In this document: positions 11,422 to 19,084 of the stretch, piece after piece
How the letters are laid out: each line of letters begins with the position of its first letter
Position numbering within the stretch: the first letter of the stretch is position 1
DNA from: Promethearchaeia archaeon
GTDB taxonomy: Archaea; Asgardarchaeota; Lokiarchaeia; Sigyniarchaeales; SOKP01
DNA: 32,000 nt
Direction of reading: 5' to 3'
Assembly: GCA_046497275.1 (NCBI GenBank)
Contig: JAWOFX010000032.1
Span: 1-32,000 of the forward strand
Translations under genes and position numbers: made by a program
Notes under the pieces: model-generated
Database searches by the model: none
Seen by the model: the letters and a program-made list of their open reading frames with translations, nothing else
What the model was told of the DNA's origin: nothing

Positions 11422-11608
11422 TTTACTATGGTGAAAAAATATATTGAATTTTTAACTTACAAATAGATTATTTATTATTAATTTATTATGTTTTGAAAAT
11501 TAAATCTTCTCTGAGATAAATTAAGTTTAAATAATTTATTCCTCTGTCAATAAAATTATAAGTTTGTGTTGTTTTTATTCAAAATAATAAGGAATTTTAC
11601 TATTAAAA

Positions 11609-13178
11609 ATGAGATTAAAAGTAAAGAAAATAAATTTTGAAACAGGTAATACAAAAGATATCGTTTTAAATCATAGAGATGCTGCCAAATTGGGCCAGAA
11701 AGCAGGAGAAAGAGTGAAAATCACTAATATGGCTAGCGACAAATTAAATGATAGATATTGGATTGCGATTATTCAAATTGCACATTCAGACTCAATATTA
11801 TCTAGTGGAGAAATTGGAATTTTTGTTAATACATTAAGAGATCATGAAGAATTAAAGGAAAATAATGAAGTTTCTGTAAAACCAGCAGAATCGCCGGATT
11901 CCTACAAGTTTATAAAAAAGAAAATAAATAGAGAGAAATTGAGTGGAGATGAAATAAATAGAATAATTAAGGATGCCGTTTCAGGGAGTCTGTCCAAGAT
12001 AGAACTCTCTTCATTTATTACAGGTATTCATATTAATGGGATGGATAACGAGGAAATGACCGCTTTAACTCTAGCAGAATCAGAGAGTGGAGAGAAATTT
12101 AACTTTGGACCGGAAGTCTTTGATAAACATAGTACATAAGTTTACAGAATTGTAAACTTAGCTAAAAGGTGGAGTTCCGGGCAACAAAGTTTCTCTGATA
12201 ATTGTTCCCATTGTGGCTGCGGCAGGATTAACAATTCCAAAAACCAGTACAAGGGCAATTACTTCTCCTTCTGGAACTGCAGATTCAATGGAAGTACTAG
12301 CACCAGTGACTTTTACTTCAGAGGAAGTTGAAGAAATAATCTCTAACTTGAAAGCCTGTATAATTTGGGGAGGCAGTCTTGACATTGCTCCCGCAGACAG
12401 TGTTTTAATAGAAGTTGAACGTCCATTACATTTTGATCCGATTGGGTTGATGATACCATCTATTTTGGCAAAAAAACTCTCGATGGGTGTTAAAAAAATA
12501 GTATTAGATGTACCTGTCGGGGAAGGAACGAAATTTAAAACTCCTATGGATGGAAAAAAATTCGCTCATCTTTTTAAGCAGATAGCAGATAATGTAGGGG
12601 TGGTTGCTGATTGTGCTCTCACTTTAGCTCATCAACCGATTGGTCATTGTATCGGCCCTGCTATAGAGGCCCAAGAAGCTTTAACATTGTTGCGTGATTA
12701 TGCCGCGGGACCAAATTCTCTAATTGAGAAATCAACGTCTCTAGCGGGAATAATCTTAGAAATGGGAGGAAAGGCGAAGCCTGATGAGGGGCAATTAATG
12801 GCTAAAGAAATATTAAGATCAGGAAAAGCTTATAAAAAGATGAAAGAAATTATTGAAATACAAGGTGGTAATCCAGAAATTACTCCCGAAGAGATAAAAT
12901 TAGGACCGCATAAAAAAGAGTTTTATTCAAACAAATCAGGGCATATTACAGAAGTTGATAATTCGATAATAAATCAAATTGCGAAGGCAGCTGGATGTCC
13001 TTATTCTAAAACCTCAGGAGTTCAGATTTATAAAAAGCAAGGTGCTATGGTAAAGGAAGGAGATAAAATATTTACAATTTATTCCAGTAGTAATACTAAA
13101 CTAAAACGTGCAGAAAAAATCTATAATAGAACTGGTGGACCTATCATTCTTGGAGGAATGCTTATTGAAAGAATATAA
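11609..13178 (+). CDS. AMP phosphorylase (archaeal thymidine-phosphorylase family); two exons 11609-12135 and 12167-13178, 512 aa if spliced
   Basis: Removing 31 nt restores [44 protein letters not shown], the family signature. The AMP-phosphorylase-type N-terminal extension and C-terminal domain are present, and both halves are free of other stops. Confidence 0.9.
12136..12166 (+). other. Candidate 31-nt bulge-helix-bulge (relaxed HBh'/BHL) mRNA intron
   Basis: A + perfect 10-bp stem TAAGTTTACA/GAAT/TGTAAACTTA (12137-12160) + GCTA + AA. GCUA(12161-64) pairs with exon-1 UAGU(12130-33). The 3-nt bulges are ACA(12134-36) and AAA(12165-67). Cutting after the 2nd nt of each bulge removes exactly 31 nt and restores the frame. 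Confidence 0.8.
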
Positions 13179-13348
13179 TCCAAATAATTCTTAATTTTTT
13201 AGTCTTTTTATTGTTCTTTCTGAAAATTAAATCCTTGAAAAAAAAAAAAAATCCTACATTTAATAAGAACAAATTTTAATATTTTCAAATTATTGCTCTT
13301 ATTTGTATTAATAATCATTAATCATTAATATTTTATACTTCAAAACCC

Positions 13349-14578
13349 ATGGATAATAAACCTTTTTCGCTATTAGTCAAGCCCGCTGGAGCTGATTGTA
13401 ATTTACGCTGTGAATATTGTTTCTATATTGATCATTTGGAGAAGCAAGACTCCAACCCAAGAATGTCAGATAAAACTTTAGAACGGATGATATCAAGTTA
13501 CATGAAAACTGAACAGAATCGAAATTATGCATTTGGTTGGCAAGGGGGAGAGCCAACTCTAATGGGTTTAGAATTTTTTAAAAAAGTTGTTAGATATCAG
13601 CAAGAATATGGAAAAACAGGAGATTTAGTAAGTAATGGTCTACAAACTAACGGAACTCTTATTACCGACGAATGGGCAAGATTTCTTGCCCAATATAAGT
13701 TTCTGATTGGTGTAAGTCTCGATGGTCCTCCAGAACTCCATAATAGTTATCGAAAAACTATAGGTAATCAAAATTCTCATTCTCTTGTGATGAAAGGCAT
13801 TGATAATTTGAGAAAATATGATGTGCAGTATAATATTTTAATACTTGTGAATAATAAAACTGTCTCCCAACCAGAAAGAATTTATGATTATATGAAAAAA
13901 AATAGATTTTATTTCCATCAATATATACCATGCATCGAATTTGGTGAAGATAGTAAACTTCTTCCTTTTTCGATAAATGGAGAACAATGGGGAGACTTTC
14001 TATGCAAAATCTTTGATTTATGGATTCAAAATGATATATATCGAGTCTCTATTAGATTATTTGATTCAATCTTAGAATACTTAGTATATGGAAATACTCA
14101 TGTTTGTTTTATGAATAATAATTGTTGTCAATATTTTGTTGTTGAACATGACGGAAGTGTATATCCATGTGATTTTTTTGTTAGAGATGATCTACTCTTA
14201 GGAAATATTAATACTGATTCTTGGAATCATTTTTTGGAATCTCAAAAATATAAGAAATTTGGAGCAAACAAATCCACATTAAATGAAGAATGCAAAAGAT
14301 GTCCATTTTTAAACATTTGTTATGGAGATTGTCAAAAAAACCGTCCAGGTGATACAAAATCCCCAAAATCATTAAGCATCTTATGTAAAGGTTGGATGAA
14401 ATTCTATTCTCATTCTTTACCATATTTTGCAAAGCTCGCAAATAGAATTCGTATAGAACGAAATCTTCCAAAAAAAGATATGAAAGTACCAACTAAATTT
14501 GGAAGAAATGATCCATGCCCATGTGGAAGTGGAAAAAAATATAAAAATTGTTGTGGATTGAAAATGAAAGATCTATGA
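13349..14578 (+). CDS. Anaerobic sulfatase maturase-like radical SAM/SPASM protein with C-terminal SEC-C motif
   Basis: [39 protein letters not shown] cysteines ([23 protein letters not shown]) and [18 protein letters not shown]. Confidence 0.93.
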
Positions 14579-14645: not shown

Positions 14646-16148
14646 ATGAGTTTAAAAGCTAAAGAAATTTTAAGTAATTTTCAGAAAGGACATATAGATC
14701 ATGATTCTATGAAGAATTCATTAATCTTTTTGGTAGAACATTCAAATAATATTACTGATAGATTAGAAAGTATTAAAATTATCAATAATCTAAATATAAA
14801 AACTGAGAAGATTTTCCAGACTTTCGAAAATATTCTTATTTCTGATTCAAGCGAAAAGATTCGAATCGTTTGTGCAAAAGTTCTTAAAGATCTTTTTTTA
14901 GAGAAGGCCATAGAGCCCTTAAGTTGGGCTCTTCAAAATGAAAAATCATTAAATTGTATAATCGCACTTATTTCATCTTTAGGGGAAATTGATAATGAGA
15001 AATCAAAAAAAATTTTACTTGCAAAAATTTCTCAAATTGATGAGAAACAATATAAATATAATTTAAAAGAGATTCTCGAAAAAAAATCCTTTAAAAATTA
15101 TACAAATGAAGAATTAGCTGACATTTTAATTAATTATTACATAATATCTACATTAAAATTAAAATTGGGATATTTGAAATTTATACCGAATGAAAAAGGA
15201 GAAATCGTAAAATTAGATATTTCTGGTATAGATAGTCAAGGTTTACGTTTTAAAAAAGTTTCCAATTCTTTACAACAAATTCTTTGTCTTCCCTTATTAA
15301 AAAGTCTTGATGTAAGTAATAATGATCTATTGCAATTACCAATTCAGTTTCCTCAACAAAATTATTTTGAAATATTAGATTTAAGTTACAATAGATTGCG
15401 TTCTTTACCTTCCTCTATAGAATACCTTAAAAATCTTAAAATCTTAGTATTAAAATCAAATAAACTTAAGAGATTACCAGAGACAATTGGATTTTTGAAA
15501 TCTTTGAATAAATTAATTTTAAGAGATAATTTATTGAATTCTATACCTAAATCTATTGGAAATTTACATAAGCTTGCATTTTTAGATATATATCACAATA
15601 AATTAAAAGAATTGCCCGAAACCTTTAATACGTTAATATCCCTCCGTCATGTAGAATTAGGTTGGAATCAATTTGAAAAATTTCCTTCATCTCTTAGAAA
15701 TATAACTAAGTTAGAAAAATTAAGTCTTCTTCGAAATAATATTTCCAGAATGCCCATATGGATTAAAGAATTAAGATATTTAAAATATTTAGAATTATGT
15801 GATAATCATCTGGAAGATTTACCTTATTCTGTTGGAAAATTAAACATATTAGAACATCTGAATCTTCGTAACAATAATATTACAAACCTCCCAAAGAGTA
15901 TAAAAAATCTCAAAAAATTAAAAATCTTAAATTTAAGCTGGAATAGAATTAATATAATTCCTGAGTGGATTTCTGATTTAGAATCTTTGGAAGAATTAAA
16001 TTTATGGAGCAATAACATAAAAAGAATTCCAAAATCCTTGACTTCTTTACCTAATTTAAAAAAATTATATTTGAATTTTAATAACATTTCACCCATTCCA
16101 GATTTTCTTAAAGAATTGGAGCAAAAGGGAGTCCATATTAAAATATAG
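14646..16148 (+). CDS. HEAT-repeat plus leucine-rich-repeat protein (paralogue 1)
   Basis: N-terminal helical region with ENILISDSSEKIRIVCAK; C-terminal 23-aa LRRs of the form LxxLxLxxNxLxxLPxxIxxLxx. Confidence 0.9.
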   Translation: MSLKAKEILSNFQKGHIDHDSMKNSLIFLVEHSNNITDRLESIKIINNLNIKTEKIFQTFENILISDSSEKIRIVCAKVLKDLFLEKAIEPLSWALQNEKSLNCIIALISSLGEIDNEKSKKILLAKISQIDEKQYKYNLKEILEKKSFKNYTNEELADILINYYIISTLKLKLGYLKFIPNEKGEIVKLDISGIDSQGLRFKKVSNSLQQILCLPLLKSLDVSNNDLLQLPIQFPQQNYFEILDLSYNRLRSLPSSIEYLKNLKILVLKSNKLKRLPETIGFLKSLNKLILRDNLLNSIPKSIGNLHKLAFLDIYHNKLKELPETFNTLISLRHVELGWNQFEKFPSSLRNITKLEKLSLLRNNISRMPIWIKELRYLKYLELCDNHLEDLPYSVGKLNILEHLNLRNNNITNLPKSIKNLKKLKILNLSWNRINIIPEWISDLESLEELNLWSNNIKRIPKSLTSLPNLKKLYLNFNNISPIPDFLKELEQKGVHIKI

Positions 16149-16210
16149 TTTATCTTAGATAAAATGTAAATTTAAATTACTTTCAAAACTTAATACAAAG
16201 AGATTATAAT

Positions 16211-17710
16211 ATGGATTTAAAACCACATAAAATATTAGAAAATTATAATTCTGATATTATTAGCAAATCCATTGCTGTTCAACAATTCACTTCTCTCATA
16301 GAGAATAGTGATAATCTAAACTATAGAATAGAAAGCCTTAAATTTCTAATTAAAATAGATGCTAAAAATACTAAAATTTATGATCTAATTGAAAATTTAT
16401 TAATATCTGACTCAAATGAGAAAATTAGATGTACGGCAGCAAAACTAATGAAAGATCATTTTTTAAATAAAGCATTTAGCGCGATGAAATGGTCTCTTGA
16501 ACATGAAACATCAATAAATTGTTTAATTACCATAATTAGGGCATTAGGTGATATAAATACCAAAGAATCTCTTTCTCTTCTAAATAACGATCTTGAAAAA
16601 ATTGAATATTCTTCATTTAAGAGTCATATAGATCAGGTTTTTAAAAAATACCCTCAAATGCACCAAGATGCAAAAATATTAGCTGAGATTCTCAATAACT
16701 ATTATGTTATTAAGTTTTTAGAAAATAAATTCGATAAAATAAGATATAAACTTAAGCGAGCTAAAGTTATTGAACTCGATTTATCAAATATCGGTAGTCA
16801 CGTGTTTGAATATAATGTTTTGAAATCTTTACCCGATTTCGTGTGCTCGTTAAAATCTTTAGAGAAATTAGATCTCAAGTTTAATCGAATAAGGAAATGT
16901 CCAAATAGTATTGGAAATCTTAAGCTTTTGAAATCATTAGATATGAGTTACAATAAATGTAAAACAATTTCTAAAAATATTGGAGAACTTTCTATATTAG
17001 AATTTCTAAATATCAAAAATAACAATTTAAAAGAATTACCTTCCTCTATTGGAAATTTATCAAATTTGAGAAGTTTAAATTTACGCTCTAATAAATTAAT
17101 GCAATTACCATCCTCTATTGGTTCATTATTTAATTTAGAAGAATTAATTCTTCATGGAAATTTATTAAAGGATTTGCCAAAAAGTATGAGTAATTTAAAG
17201 AAAATTAAGATTTTAGAATTAGGTTCAAATAGATTCAGAAATCTCCCAGAATCATTAAAAAGATTGAGATCTCTTAATATATTAGGTTTAGGGGGTAATA
17301 ATTTAACCAAAATACCCAGATGGATCGGAAATCTAAATAATCTAAAGGAATTACATGTTTATGATAATTTCCTAGAACAACTACCTGAGAGCCTGGGATC
17401 TCTTAGTTCCTTAGAGGAATTAACTTTATGGAATAATAATTTGGAAACACTCCCGAGATCTTTTACAAAATTCTCATCATTAAAGCGATTAAACTTGAGT
17501 TGGAATAATTTACAGAAATTACCTGAATGTATCGAAAAAATAAAATCATTGGAAATATTAAGTTTATGGGGTAATAATCTAAAAGAAATTCCGGCATCAA
17601 TAGAAAATTTGGAGAATCTTAGAATTTTAGATCTGAATTTTAATAAAAATATTAAATTACCTACAAATTTGGCTGATTTAGAAAGAAACGGTTTAATAAT
17701 CTACAAATAG
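16211..17710 (+). CDS. HEAT-repeat plus leucine-rich-repeat protein (paralogue 2)
   Basis: ENLLISDSNEKIRCTAAK followed by 23-aa LRRs such as LRSLNLRSNKLMQLPSSIGSL. Confidence 0.9.
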   Translation: MDLKPHKILENYNSDIISKSIAVQQFTSLIENSDNLNYRIESLKFLIKIDAKNTKIYDLIENLLISDSNEKIRCTAAKLMKDHFLNKAFSAMKWSLEHETSINCLITIIRALGDINTKESLSLLNNDLEKIEYSSFKSHIDQVFKKYPQMHQDAKILAEILNNYYVIKFLENKFDKIRYKLKRAKVIELDLSNIGSHVFEYNVLKSLPDFVCSLKSLEKLDLKFNRIRKCPNSIGNLKLLKSLDMSYNKCKTISKNIGELSILEFLNIKNNNLKELPSSIGNLSNLRSLNLRSNKLMQLPSSIGSLFNLEELILHGNLLKDLPKSMSNLKKIKILELGSNRFRNLPESLKRLRSLNILGLGGNNLTKIPRWIGNLNNLKELHVYDNFLEQLPESLGSLSSLEELTLWNNNLETLPRSFTKFSSLKRLNLSWNNLQKLPECIEKIKSLEILSLWGNNLKEIPASIENLENLRILDLNFNKNIKLPTNLADLERNGLIIYK

Positions 17711-17725
17711 AGTGAAGATAATTTT

Positions 17726-19084
17726 ATGGAAAACAAAATTTTTGAAATTTATCAAAAATATAAGAAAAATATTTTAGATAAAAATGGAGCTGTAGATAGA
17801 ATAATATCTCTTATTGAAAATATCCAAAAACATAATGAGAGATATGAAGCTTTAAGGGTTCTTGAGAAAATAAACTTAAAAGATGAACACATCTTTCCTT
17901 TTTTAGAAAGTCTTTTTCTCTCTGATTCGAATGAGAAAATAAGAATTATTGCTGCAAAAATTATAAGAAAAGATTACATAGATTTAGCATATAATCCTAT
18001 GAAATGGGCATTAAATCATGAAACCTCTCCCGAATGTTTAAAAGAAATACATGAAACCTTAATGCAAATTTTATCTGAAATCAAAAATGATGATAACATT
18101 GATTATAGAAAATTTTTAATTGAAGAAATAAGTGATATTAAAGATAAAGAATTTAGAGTAGGCTTTGAGATTTTAAAAGAAAATAAAGAAATAGACACAT
18201 TAAAAAAAGATATTTTAATTAAAATTTTAGTAAATTATTATACATTAGTATATTTAGAAAAAGTTTATTGGCGTGTAAAATATTCTCTCAATAATTTAGA
18301 AATTGTTAAATTAGATTTCATTTTCAAGGGATTGAATTCTATTCCAAATGCTTTGAAATATTTAACTTCTATAAGTTCACTTATATTTAGATATAATCAA
18401 ATAACTTCAATTCCGGAATGGATTGGGAGATTAAAGCTCCTTAAAACCCTAAATCTTAATGTTAATGAACTTCATTCTCTCCCCGAATCCATAGGTCAAT
18501 TAAAAGCATTAAAAGAATTTTATTTATGGAAAAATAATCTTGAAAGACTCCCAAATTCACTTGGAGATTTGGAATATTTAGAAATATTAAATTTAAGATT
18601 AAACTATTTAAGTTATCTTCCTTTTTCGATTGGGAAAATGAAATCTTTAAAAGATCTAAATCTCCACGATAATAAATTAACTGCTTTACCTCCCACAATT
18701 GGAAATTTAAATTCTTTACAAAAGCTAAATCTTAGTTGGAATATGTTAAAAGGACTTCCGGAGACGATTGGAAGTCTTTTTTCACTAGAAACACTTGATA
18801 TAGGAAGAAACGAGTTGAAAGTATTACCTGAAACAATCGGTAATCTGAATAAATTAAACACTCTAATTCTGAGCGAAAATCAATTGAAACATCTACCTAA
18901 TAAAATTGTAGAACTTAAAAATCTAAAGCATTTAAATGTAGCTAGAAATCGTTTAGTTTCTCTACCTGAAGGATTAGATTCTATGCCAAAATTGGAAGAA
19001 TTATATATAAGTGAAAATAGTATAGATTCTTTTTCTTCACTTATTACAAAGTTAGAACGTAATGGGGTTAAGATTTTCTTATAA
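17726..19084 (+). CDS. HEAT-repeat plus leucine-rich-repeat protein (paralogue 3)
   Basis: ESLFLSDSNEKIRIIAAK followed by 23-aa LRRs such as LQKLNLSWNMLKGLPETIGSL. Confidence 0.9.
   Translation: MENKIFEIYQKYKKNILDKNGAVDRIISLIENIQKHNERYEALRVLEKINLKDEHIFPFLESLFLSDSNEKIRIIAAKIIRKDYIDLAYNPMKWALNHETSPECLKEIHETLMQILSEIKNDDNIDYRKFLIEEISDIKDKEFRVGFEILKENKEIDTLKKDILIKILVNYYTLVYLEKVYWRVKYSLNNLEIVKLDFIFKGLNSIPNALKYLTSISSLIFRYNQITSIPEWIGRLKLLKTLNLNVNELHSLPESIGQLKALKEFYLWKNNLERLPNSLGDLEYLEILNLRLNYLSYLPFSIGKMKSLKDLNLHDNKLTALPPTIGNLNSLQKLNLSWNMLKGLPETIGSLFSLETLDIGRNELKVLPETIGNLNKLNTLILSENQLKHLPNKIVELKNLKHLNVARNRLVSLPEGLDSMPKLEELYISENSIDSFSSLITKLERNGVKIFL

What the first reader, a model, noticed from the sequence alone, without database searches (positions are those of the whole stretch)
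12110..12180. Candidate bulge-helix-bulge mRNA intron splitting the active-site motif of AMP phosphorylase
Seen in sequence: the gene reads ...GAT AAA CAT AGT ACA, then TAA, and resumes 31 nt later in the +1 frame as GGT GGA GTT CCG GGC AAC, splitting [11 protein letters not shown]. The insert decomposes as 1 nt + a perfect 10-bp hairpin (12137-12160, GAAU loop) + 4 nt + 2 nt. The 4 nt (GCUA 12161-64) pair with exon-1 UAGU (12130-33: U-A, A-U, G-C, U.G). This leaves two 3-nt bulges, ACA (12134-36) and AAA (12165-67), both ending in A. The outer helix starts with an A.G mismatch and then C12128-G12169 and A12127-U12170. A longer exon-exon pairing CCGGAA(12110-15)/UUCCGG(12175-80) plus CUUU(12118-21)/GGAG(12171-74) can clamp it. 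Established: archaeal splicing endonuclease cuts after the 2nd nt of each bulge around a 4-bp helix; relaxed HBh'/BHL motifs are cleaved by some endonuclease types; the best-known protein-coding example is crenarchaeal cbf5. Inference: those cuts (after 12135 and after 12166) remove exactly 31 nt and give a 512-aa enzyme. A random insertion is unlikely to fit both the motif geometry and the frame. I know of no such intron reported in AMP phosphorylase or in an Asgard mRNA, but I could not search the literature.
Basis: partly seen in the sequence, partly recalled or inferred. Interest (0 to 1): 0.92.

Follow-up and report, generated by a model that had tools for sequence, protein, structure and literature searches.

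The report
tRNA-type mini-intron in Asgard AMP phosphorylase
The only AMP phosphorylase gene of this Asgard (Promethearchaeota) archaeon is interrupted inside its active-site motif by a 31-base hairpin shaped like an archaeal tRNA intron. The same insert is kept, with compensating mutations, in 35 related genomes, so the mRNA almost certainly has to be cut and rejoined before the enzyme can be made.

Summary
Window 11609-12135 and 12167-13178 are two halves of one AMP phosphorylase (TIGR03327 positions 1-165 and 167-500). Removing 12136-12166 restores [12 protein letters not shown] and a 512-aa protein.

The insert folds as a relaxed bulge-helix-bulge (HBh') motif. Within the same taxonomic family, 35 of 111 AMPase genes read at this site carry an insert at this codon. 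Its length is 29, 30 or 31 nt, and the downstream frame always follows that length. The 4-bp central helix pairs in 35/35 alleles, with compensatory changes between exon codons and intron. The intron hairpin covaries at 8 of 9 pairs. dN/dS of both exons (0.12, 0.075) equals that of intron-less orthologues.

The genome encodes a crenarchaeal-type alpha/beta splicing endonuclease and two RtcB ligases. At least five other genes in it carry similar ~30-nt inserts at profile-contiguous sites, including RNA polymerase A', EF-1alpha and CdhA.

Best explanation: an EndA/RtcB-spliced mRNA intron (confidence 0.88). No RNA evidence was available. Only cbf5 and HVO_1309 are published archaeal cases, and no paper on Asgard mRNA introns was found. 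This scan had already flagged and followed up the same AMPase intron in other Lokiarchaeal genomes.

The parts
11609..12135 (+). Exon 1 of AMP phosphorylase (175 codons plus the first two bases, AC, of the Thr codon)
   Evidence: ORF list and translation. Matches TIGR03327 profile 1-165 and Pfam Glycos_trans_3N.
12127..12128 (+). 5' strand of the weak outer helix h. A12127 pairs with U12170 and C12128 with G12169. A12129.G12168 is a mismatch next to the 3' bulge.
   Evidence: C-G is invariant in 35/35 alleles. The neighbouring pair is A-U in 23, G-U in 4, G-C in 2 and unpaired in 6. RNAalifold does not predict this helix, so the motif is HBh' rather than full hBHBh'.
12130..12133 (+). Central helix H, exon strand (UAGU). 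It consists of the last base of the His codon plus the Ser codon AGU.
   Evidence: Pairs with 12161-64. 35/35 alleles are fully paired. Pair 1 is U-A in 26 and C-G in 9. Pair 4 is C-G in 20, U.G in 14 and U-A in 1.
12134..12136 (+). 5' three-nucleotide bulge ACA. The predicted cut is after C12135.
   Evidence: Unpaired in the MFE fold and in the consensus fold. It is ACA or ACU in all alleles.
12136..12166 (+). The 31-nt intron (predicted excised, probably circularised, segment)
   Evidence: Its removal restores the frame and the [12 protein letters not shown] motif. Homologous inserts of 29-31 nt occur in 35 alleles.
12137..12160 (+). Intron helix h': perfect 10-bp stem (12137-46 / 12151-60) with GAAU loop. 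Contains the in-frame UAA at 12137-39.
   Evidence: Across the alleles 9 bp are 97.1% paired, and 8 of 9 pairs have compensatory double changes.
12161..12164 (+). Central helix H, intron strand (GCUA)
12165..12167 (+). 3' three-nucleotide bulge AAA. The predicted cut is after A12166. A12167 becomes the third base of the Thr codon.
   Evidence: The first base is A in all 35 alleles. The last base varies (A/G/U/C) and always gives Thr (ACN).
12167..13178 (+). Exon 2 of AMP phosphorylase: third base of the Thr codon, 336 codons and the stop
   Evidence: Translation. Matches TIGR03327 profile 167-500 and Pfam Glycos_transf_3 + PYNP_C. Matches PDB 4ga4/4ga5 (E 5e-104, deposited as 'putative thymidine phosphorylase'). 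There is no canonical start codon between the in-frame TAG at 12159-61 and GTG at 12213.
12169..12170 (+). 3' strand of the weak outer helix h (G12169, U12170)
   Evidence: helix 2, 91% of cells paired.
12110..12115 (+). Distal exon-exon clamp CCGGAA, pairing with UUCCGG at 12175-80. It is lineage-specific and not part of the conserved motif.
   Evidence: Present in the MFE fold. Only 62% paired across the alleles (helix 1).

Best explanation
The 31 nt at 12136-12166 are an archaeal bulge-helix-bulge (tRNA-type) intron inside the AMP phosphorylase mRNA of a Promethearchaeota (Loki-type Asgard) archaeon. In the primary transcript, four exon bases (UAGU, His/Ser codons) pair with four intron bases (GCUA). 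This places a 3-nt bulge on each strand, next to a 10-bp intron hairpin, and forms a relaxed HBh' motif with a 2-bp outer helix. The organism's heteromeric (alpha-beta) splicing endonuclease cuts after the second base of each bulge (after 12135 and after 12166). RtcB then joins the exons and probably circularises the intron. The mature mRNA encodes a 512-aa enzyme with an intact [12 protein letters not shown] loop. Unspliced mRNA can only give a 176-aa N-terminal fragment. Shown here: the structure, its conservation and covariation, the frame tracking, purifying selection on both exons, and the presence of the enzymes. Inferred: the cleavage, the ligation and their efficiency. The intron was probably present in the ancestor of most of the family and was later lost precisely many times.
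For: Structure and product. The fold is significantly stable. The halves are contiguous on the TIGR03327 profile, with one residue restored by the junction.

Conservation. 35 distinct alleles carry the insert at the identical codon, in 10 of 13 genera of the family. It is absent from the deepest genus and from the other families of the order sampled.

Covariation. H is 100% paired with 2 of 4 pairs compensatory. h' is 97% paired with 8 of 9 pairs compensatory. 0 of 500 shuffles reach the observed values, and slid registers fall to 27-46% paired against 87%. RNAalifold independently returns H + bulge + h'. Intron-bearing alleles always use the AGY Ser codon needed for pairing, whereas intron-less ones often use UCN.

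Frame tracking. Loop-length changes give inserts of 29/30/31 nt. The 336-codon exon 2 stays open in the frame that exact excision predicts, and every allele has in-frame stops or a frameshift if unspliced.

Selection. dN/dS is 0.12 (exon 1) and 0.075 (exon 2) in intron-bearing pairs, against 0.126 and 0.070 in intron-less pairs.

Gene context. This is the only homologue in a 98.9%-complete genome. RuBisCO and a ribose-1,5-bisphosphate-isomerase-like gene are present.

Machinery. Two EndA paralogues are encoded. One is closest to the Aeropyrum pernix entries 3P1Z_B/3AJV_B and aligns through their ..G.PL...KPR.. N-terminal stretch. The other has no His at the aligned catalytic position. Two RtcB genes are also present. 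Asgard EndA is reported as (alpha-beta)2 with the L1 loop that confers relaxed-BHB cleavage (PMC5829648).

Same architecture in other genes of this genome. The halves abut on their profiles: RpoA' 5-77|78-568, EF-1alpha 1-19|20-422, CdhA 6-64|65-565, UbiA/DGGGPS 5-65|67-277, and an MR/MLE dehydratase. In EF-1alpha only the cut after bulge base 2 restores the P-loop Lys (sequence).

Independent assembly. A contig from another sample carries the identical insert.
Against: There is no RNA-level or protein-level evidence. No spliced transcript, circular intron or junction peptide could be looked for. The nearest database protein is a truncated 321-aa call, and no near-identical full-length product was found. 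The outer helix h is weak: an A.G mismatch then 2 bp, not predicted by RNAalifold. The motif is therefore relaxed, and cleavage at the 3' site depends on a broad-specificity enzyme whose activity in this lineage is untested. A genome-wide motif scan shows only a modest excess over frame-shifted controls: 41 against 27-33, and 98 against 69-82 at the -5 kcal/mol threshold but 46 against 37-44 at -6 kcal/mol. Motif plus ORF alone is therefore not diagnostic. The case rests on the comparative data.
Confidence: 0.88

Rival explanations
1. Translational bypassing (ribosome hopping, as in phage T4 gene 60): the ribosome takes off at the Thr codon before the stop-containing hairpin and lands just before GGU, without any RNA processing.
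For: In this genome a stop (UAA) directly follows the Thr codon and lies in a stable hairpin. Bypassing would also tolerate insert lengths that are not multiples of three.
Against: Take-off and landing codons do not match. The codon before GGU is AAA in most alleles and ACN in only 2 of 35. In the alleles whose hairpin begins AAAA/AAAG (about half of the 35, mostly genus g11), no stop follows the Thr codon directly: the frame reads ACA AAA AUU ... and the stop lies in the 3' arm. Bypassing does not predict the strict 4-bp exon/intron helix, its compensatory changes, or the two 3-nt bulges. The same BHB geometry recurs in other genes.
Confidence: 0.04
2. RNA-level excision by something other than EndA/RtcB, such as another nuclease/ligase pair or an unknown editing activity that uses the hairpin.
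For: The outer helix is weak, so the motif is not a canonical hBHBh'. No biochemical data exist for this lineage's EndA.
Against: The conserved features are exactly those that define EndA substrates: a 4-bp helix, 3-nt bulges, and cuts after bulge base 2. They are not needed by any other known system. The alpha/beta EndA with the broad-specificity loop region, and RtcB, are both encoded (PMC5829648).
Confidence: 0.04
3. Disrupted gene. Either it is a pseudogene made by insertion of a small palindromic element, or it is a split gene expressed as two polypeptides (a 176-aa N fragment plus a C fragment started at GTG 12213). Public annotation pipelines in effect treat it this way.
For: Database records-341-aa C-terminal fragments 'hypothetical protein' or 'thymidine phosphorylase'. 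An ORF from GTG 12213 exists.
Against: dN/dS of both halves equals that of intact orthologues although dS is saturated. There are no further lesions in 35 alleles. The 15 codons between the insert and GTG 12213 encode the conserved GGVPGNK loop and have no canonical start codon upstream of them. No other copy of the insert exists in the genome, so it is not a repeat element. EF-1alpha and RpoA' carry the same kind of insert and cannot be pseudogenes.
Confidence: 0.03
4. Assembly or sequencing artefact.
For: The genome is a metagenome-assembled draft of 188 contigs.
Against: The insert is identical in an independent assembly from another sample. Homologous inserts occur in 34 other genomes.
Confidence: 0.01

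Closest known systems
cbf5 (pseudouridine synthase) pre-mRNA intron of Crenarchaeota (Watanabe 2002; Yoshinari 2006; Yokobori 2009, PMC2738675)
   Same: [quoted passage not shown] It is found in organisms with a heteromeric (alpha-beta)2 endonuclease. Its distribution is patchy, and secondary precise losses have been proposed (PMC2738675; PMC10485636).
   Different: A different gene (AMP phosphorylase), a different phylum (Promethearchaeota/Asgard) and a non-homologous intron. Splicing of cbf5 was shown experimentally, whereas here it is inferred. Here the genome carries several further such introns, including in RpoA' and EF-1alpha.
HVO_1309 mRNA of Haloferax volcanii, the second published EndA-processed archaeal mRNA (PMC7714728; summarised in PMC10485636)
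   Same: An EndA substrate in an mRNA. [quoted passage not shown]
   Different: A euryarchaeon with an alpha2-type enzyme. I did not check its position or role. It is not an interruption of a conserved catalytic motif as far as I read.
Non-canonical tRNA introns of Asgard archaea (bioRxiv 10.64898/2026.10.13.758758)
   Same: Same lineage, same splicing motif and enzyme, and many independent gains and losses. ARAGORN finds only 19 tRNAs in this 98.9%-complete genome, which fits heavily interrupted tRNA genes.
   Different: That study covers tRNA genes only. Its single 'protein-coding' mention concerns neighbouring genes used as locus markers. Here the host is an mRNA, so splicing must precede or compete with translation.
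HAC1/XBP1 unconventional mRNA splicing (IRE1 endonuclease; RtcB ligase in metazoa)
   Same: Works alike in outline: a protein endonuclease recognises a local RNA structure in an mRNA, a short intron is removed, and the reading frame downstream changes. RtcB also acts in XBP1 splicing (PMC8718801 abstract).
   Different: A different endonuclease family and recognition motif (my own knowledge). It is a regulated stress switch, and no evidence for regulation exists here.
Phage T4 gene 60 translational bypass
   Same: A short untranslated, hairpin-containing gap inside an ORF.
   Different: It needs matched take-off and landing codons, which was tested here and not met (2 of 35 alleles). It involves no RNA cleavage.

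Membership tests
Archaeal BHB (EndA-type) intron | [quoted passage not shown] | tested here: met
   Helix 12130-33/12161-64 with bulges 12134-36 and 12165-67. H is fully paired in 35/35 alleles with compensatory changes.
Archaeal BHB (EndA-type) intron | Flanking helix h' (the intron side here) | tested here: met
   The stem is 10 bp in this genome. 9 bp are conserved, 97% paired, and 8 of 9 pairs covary.
Archaeal BHB (EndA-type) intron | Flanking helix h (exon-exon side), needed for the strict hBHBh' form | tested here: inconclusive
   An A.G mismatch is followed by only 2 bp: C-G invariant, and A-U/G-U/G-C in 29 of 35 alleles. RNAalifold does not predict it. The motif is best called relaxed HBh'.
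Archaeal BHB (EndA-type) intron | Cuts after the second base of each bulge give a functional product | tested here: met
   In silico only. The frame is restored for 29-, 30- and 31-nt alleles, the junction codon is always Thr, and profile positions are contiguous. The EF-1alpha intron of the same genome discriminates the register, because only this cut restores the P-loop Lys.
Archaeal BHB (EndA-type) intron | Host encodes a splicing endonuclease able to cut relaxed motifs, and an RtcB ligase | tested here: met
   Two EndA paralogues are present. One is closest to A. pernix 3P1Z_B/3AJV_B and aligns through the loop region. The other lacks the catalytic His at the aligned position. Two RtcB genes are present. 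That 3P1Z_B is the catalytic alpha subunit and that this stretch is the broad-specificity loop is my recollection plus PMC5829648, not a test of activity.
Archaeal BHB (EndA-type) intron | Spliced RNA / excised circular intron observed; cleavage in vitro | not testable with these tools
   No transcript data were available. The protein database gave no near-identical full-length product.
AMP phosphorylase (NCBIfam TIGR03327, equivalog) | Full-length match above the curated cut-off (535 bits) | tested here: met
   The halves score 121.1 and 449.7 bits on profile 1-165 and 167-500. Their simple sum, 570.8, exceeds 535, although neither half does alone. The best solved-structure matches are PDB 4ga4/4ga5.
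Programmed translational bypass (gene 60 type) | Identical take-off and landing codons flanking the gap | tested here: not met
   The landing-side codon is AAA, AAG, AAU, AUU or AAC in 33 of 35 alleles, against take-off ACA/ACU.

The most novel reading that the evidence does not exclude
The AMP phosphorylase intron is one member of a genome-wide, evolutionarily dynamic set of ~30-nt EndA-type mini-introns in protein-coding genes of this Asgard family. The statistical excess in this genome is on the order of 10-25, and I checked RNA polymerase A', EF-1alpha, CdhA, DGGGP synthase and an enolase-superfamily dehydratase. On this reading, endonuclease/ligase splicing of mRNA is an obligatory step in expressing essential genes in close prokaryotic relatives of eukaryotes. 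That would imply some way of keeping ribosomes off unspliced transcripts. It would also allow splicing to gate enzyme production, since unspliced AMPase mRNA yields only a 176-aa fragment.
Probability: 0.6. Interest if true: 0.92.

Novelty: new member of a known kind. Interest (0 to 1): 0.82.

Why it matters
Published archaeal mRNA splicing rests on two genes, cbf5 and HVO_1309 (PMC10485636). Here a metabolic enzyme of an Asgard archaeon carries a BHB intron. Covariation, frame tracking and purifying selection across 35 genomes support it about as strongly as sequence alone can.

It is also not alone. Essential genes of the same genome (RNA polymerase A', EF-1alpha) show the same architecture. 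[quoted passage not shown] These organisms would then depend on enzymatic mRNA splicing, which raises the question of how translation is kept from running into unspliced messages.

There is a practical consequence as well. Gene callers split or truncate these genes: 321-341-aa 'hypothetical protein' or 'thymidine phosphorylase' records appear. That distorts metabolic reconstructions and completeness estimates for Asgard MAGs. The many precise losses (at least 10 on well-supported branches) also make this a tractable system for studying how such introns are gained and lost.

Tried and rejected
1. Genome-wide motif + ORF scans. A loose scan (4-bp H, 6 closing pairs, L 18-100, at least 50 codons each side) gave 545 hits against 519-565 in controls with the 3' cut shifted by 1-2 nt, so no excess. 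A relaxed scan with hairpin energy thresholds also showed no clear excess. Only stricter settings gave a modest excess: 41 against 27-33, and 98 against 69-82 at -5 kcal/mol but 46 against 37-44 at -6 kcal/mol. Adjacent genes with intergenic hairpins swamp the signal, so motif plus ORF is not diagnostic and my estimate of 10-25 introns is rough. One version of the scan timed out.

2. Search for products of spliced transcripts. The search for homologous proteins with exon 2 gave no near-identical full-length protein. The closest is a 98%-identical truncated call. This is uninformative rather than negative.

3. blastn-short gave only chance 15-19-nt matches inside coding sequence.

4. Rfam scan of 11500-13300: no family at E <= 1.

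5. Comparison with this genome's tRNA introns through ARAGORN. Only 19 tRNAs were found, and the intron calls were unreliable for defining BHB registers. This was dropped.

6. Shorter open frames (419-431 aa) in genus g8 were checked as a possible second intron site. Those genes match only residues ~93/98-175 of exon 1, with no match to the first ~90 residues anywhere in the fetched loci.

7. The metagenome-contig scan and structure prediction were not used. Neither would discriminate the hypotheses.
Full report
**What is in the sequence**

- An ORF starts at 11609 and reads ...GAT AAA CAT AGT ACA, then TAA at 12137-39.
- From 12168, in the +1 frame, the sequence reads GGT GGA GTT CCG GGC AAC AAA and stays open to 13178.
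- The 31 nt between are: one base (A12136), a perfect 10-bp hairpin (12137-46/12151-60, loop GAAT), GCTA (12161-64) and AA (12165-66).
- GCTA pairs with TAGT (12130-33). This leaves ACA (12134-36) and AAA (12165-67) as 3-nt bulges on opposite strands.

ViennaRNA's MFE structure of 12105-12185 contains exactly this arrangement. It scores -23.7 kcal/mol, z = -4.07, and none of 200 shuffles folds as well.

The two halves hit NCBIfam TIGR03327 (AMP phosphorylase) at profile positions 1-165 and 167-500. They also carry the expected Pfam domains, and exon 2 matches PDB entries 4ga4/4ga5. One residue is missing between the halves. Cutting after the second base of each bulge joins AC to A and supplies it as Thr. 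The result is [12 protein letters not shown] and 512 aa.

**Whose genome it is**

Close relatives fetched from the genome collection are titled 'Promethearchaeota archaeon'. Database homologues are named Lokiarchaeota or Promethearchaeota. The window is contig C171 of a 3.85-Mb, 98.9%-complete MAG with about 28-30% G+C.

**Comparative test**

I searched exon 2 against 41 relatives and then against 135 genomes of the same family, and fetched the loci.
- 111 family genes could be read at this site, and 35 distinct alleles carry an insert at exactly this codon.
- The other 76 family genes, and the 6 from another family of the order that were read at this site, read [12 protein letters not shown] without interruption.
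- Carriers occur in 10 of the family's 13 genera, often beside intron-less congeners (3 of 6 in the window's own genus).

The inserts are homologous and of similar architecture. Their lengths are 29 nt (2 alleles), 30 nt (30 alleles) and 31 nt (3 alleles), and the difference lies in the hairpin loop.
- In every allele the 336-codon exon 2 (323 in one that runs off its fetched stretch) is open in the frame that exact excision of that allele's insert predicts.
- Unspliced, every allele meets in-frame stops or a frameshift. The open frame extends only 2-4 codons upstream of GGV.
- Loop indels that are not multiples of three have therefore been tolerated. That makes sense only if the segment is removed before or during decoding.

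**Covariation**

On the 35-allele alignment (A1) I counted pairs for the proposed structure.
- The central helix H is paired in 100% of cells.
- H pair 1 is U-A in 26 alleles and C-G in 9. The synonymous His codon CAU/CAC covaries with intron GCUA/GCUG.
- H pair 4 is C-G in 20, U.G in 14 and U-A in 1. H pair 3 is G-C or G.U.
- The intron hairpin is 97% paired, and 8 of 9 pairs show double compensatory changes.
- None of 500 shuffles reaches the observed values.
- Sliding the 3' partners by 1-3 columns drops pairing from 87% to 27-46%.

RNAalifold, given no structure, returns the same H + 3-nt bulge + h'.

Intron-bearing alleles always use AGY for the Ser codon, which is required for pairing. 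Intron-less ones frequently use UCN.

The outer exon-exon helix is weak: A.G, then an invariant C-G, then a pair that is standard in 29 of 35 alleles. RNAalifold does not call it. The motif is therefore a relaxed HBh', not a full hBHBh'.

**Not a pseudogene, split gene or artefact**

- Pairwise dN/dS among intron-bearing alleles is 0.12 for exon 1 and 0.075 for exon 2. Among intron-less alleles it is 0.126 and 0.070. dS is saturated at about 1.5-2.
- The gene is the only homologue in the genome.
- The partner enzymes of the AMP pathway are present: a RuBisCO large subunit and a ribose-1,5-bisphosphate-isomerase-like protein.
- Between the in-frame TAG at 12159-61 and the first canonical start (GTG 12213) lie 15 codons that encode the conserved GGVPGNK loop. 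Separate initiation therefore cannot produce a complete catalytic domain.
- A contig assembled independently from sample ERZ781358 differs at 8 of 171 aligned bases, all in the flanking coding sequence. It carries the identical 31 nt.
- No second copy of the insert exists in the genome.
- No Rfam family matches.

**Machinery**

The genome encodes two EndA paralogues of about 200 aa.
- One is most similar to the Aeropyrum pernix endonuclease chains 3P1Z_B/3AJV_B. It aligns through their N-terminal '..G.PL...KPR..' stretch and keeps the H and K of the active-site region.
- The other is divergent and has no His at the aligned catalytic position.

This is the (alpha-beta)2 arrangement. PMC5829648 reports it for Asgard archaea together with the L1 loop, which it links to cleavage of relaxed BHB motifs. 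A 2026 preprint finds two paralogues in 44 of 60 Asgard genomes. Two RtcB ligase genes are present.

**The intron is not alone in this genome**

My own scans and leads from earlier notes of this scan pointed to further ~30-nt inserts with the same geometry. I checked them by asking whether the flanking halves abut on a curated profile.

| Gene | Profile | Positions on either side of the insert |
|---|---|---|
| RNA polymerase A' | NF006336 | 5-77 / 78-568 |
| EF-1alpha | NF008969 | 1-19 / 20-422 |
| CdhA | TIGR00314 | 6-64 / 65-565 |
| UbiA-type DGGGP synthase | NF009523 | 5-65 / 67-277 |
| Enolase-superfamily dehydratase | MR_MLE_C | 14-156 / 161-218 |

DnaG, a ubiquitin-E2-like gene and an ABC ATPase also carry inserts, but the profile evidence is weaker because one half gave no hit.

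In EF-1alpha, only the cut after bulge base 2 rebuilds the P-loop GHIDHG-K-ST. This fixes the cutting register independently of AMPase.

Frame-shifted controls suggest on the order of 10-25 such introns, with wide uncertainty. ARAGORN finds only 19 tRNAs. That fits the heavily interrupted tRNA genes described for Asgard archaea.

**History**

On a maximum-likelihood tree of 117 AMPase proteins, intron presence needs 19 changes, and at least 10 are forced by well-supported branches.
- The deepest genus of the family (g8) and the sampled other family of the order (f2) lack it.
- Early-branching carriers (g13, g5) have inserts resembling those of the window's clade.
- Intron sequence types follow the gene tree.

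The simplest reading is one gain near the base of the family followed by many precise losses, as was proposed for cbf5 (PMC2738675). Lateral exchange of alleles cannot be excluded. A gene tree cannot tell gain from loss by itself.

**Rivals**

- Translational bypassing is disfavoured. The codon before GGU matches the take-off Thr codon in only 2 of 35 alleles. Many alleles have no stop directly after the Thr codon. Bypassing also does not predict the exon/intron helix or the bulges.
- An unknown RNA-excision activity cannot be excluded, but it is unnecessary.
- Pseudogene, split-gene and artefact readings are contradicted as described above.

**Literature**

Nine full-text searches and five papers read found no report of a BHB intron in AMP phosphorylase or in any Asgard protein-coding gene. 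The 2023 review PMC10485636 counts 'at least two archaeal genes' (cbf5, HVO_1309) as TSEN-spliced and expects more. The library misses most subscription journals, so absence is not proof.

**Earlier notes of this scan**

The scan had already flagged and followed up the same AMPase intron in other Lokiarchaeal genomes. It had also flagged similar mini-introns in other Asgard genes: RNase HII in this genome, and gatE, a citG-like gene and RFC elsewhere. I used these only as leads. The counts and tests above are my own.

**Verdict**

Mechanistically this is a new member of a known kind, an EndA-type intron in an mRNA. It sits in a new gene and a new phylum, with strong comparative support, and it is embedded in what looks like a genome-wide set. 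What is missing is any RNA or protein evidence.

Noticed in passing
G000 contig C83:1644-1673 (outside the window): A 30-nt BHB-like insert splits RNA polymerase subunit A' between GHFGH and IELARPV. The halves match NF006336 at 5-77 and 78-568.
   Followed up: partly
G000 contig C83:19113-19144 (outside the window): A 32-nt BHB-like insert lies inside the P-loop of EF-1alpha (GHIDHG | KSTMMG). The halves match NF008969 at 1-19 and 20-422. Only a cut after bulge base 2 restores the Lys.
   Followed up: partly
G000 contigs C46:5373-5403, C111:36425-36457 (-), C141:3106-3136 (-): Similar ~30-nt inserts occur in CdhA (TIGR00314 6-64 | 65-565), a UbiA-type DGGGP synthase (NF009523 5-65 | 67-277) and an enolase-superfamily dehydratase (MR_MLE_C 14-156 | 161-218).
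   Followed up: partly
G000 contigs C136:3748-3776 (-), C79:2989-3023 (-), C59:8286-8317 (+): Inserts of 29-35 nt occur in DnaG, a ubiquitin-E2-like gene and an ABC ATPase. They were noted by earlier readers. I confirmed the sequences, but profile contiguity could not be shown because one half of each gave no hit.
   Followed up: partly
whole genome G000: ARAGORN finds only 19 tRNA genes, 9 with called introns, in a 98.9%-complete genome. This suggests most tRNA genes are too interrupted to be recognised.
   Followed up: no
window 14646-19084 (+): Three tandem paralogous genes of about 450-500 aa have C-terminal leucine-rich repeats (LRR_14, LRR_8).
   Followed up: no
window 13349-14578 (+): A radical SAM/SPASM protein carries a C-terminal SEC-C metal-binding motif, directly downstream of AMPase.
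   Followed up: no
G000 contig C171:33274-34092 (-), just beyond the window; and C130:2533-5384: A second, weaker RuBisCO-large-like gene lies about 20 kb from AMPase on the same contig. The stronger RuBisCO hit sits about 1 kb from a ribose-1,5-bisphosphate-isomerase-like gene on C130.
   Followed up: no
public protein records (P0003, P0011, P0023, P0050 and others): Gene callers annotate the C-terminal exon of intron-bearing alleles as separate 321-341-aa proteins named 'hypothetical protein', 'thymidine phosphorylase' or 'AMP phosphorylase'.
   Followed up: no
L051 (G103:C128) and L129 (G103:C103): One relative's assembly holds two AMPase copies, one with and one without the intron. They fall in different subclades, so this is probably a strain mixture or contamination (9%) rather than a transcript.
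   Followed up: partly
L023, L024, L069, L070 (genus g8): The AMPase homologues of the deepest genus match only residues ~93/98-175 of exon 1. They appear to lack the ~90-aa N-terminal domain, and they have no intron at this site.
   Followed up: partly
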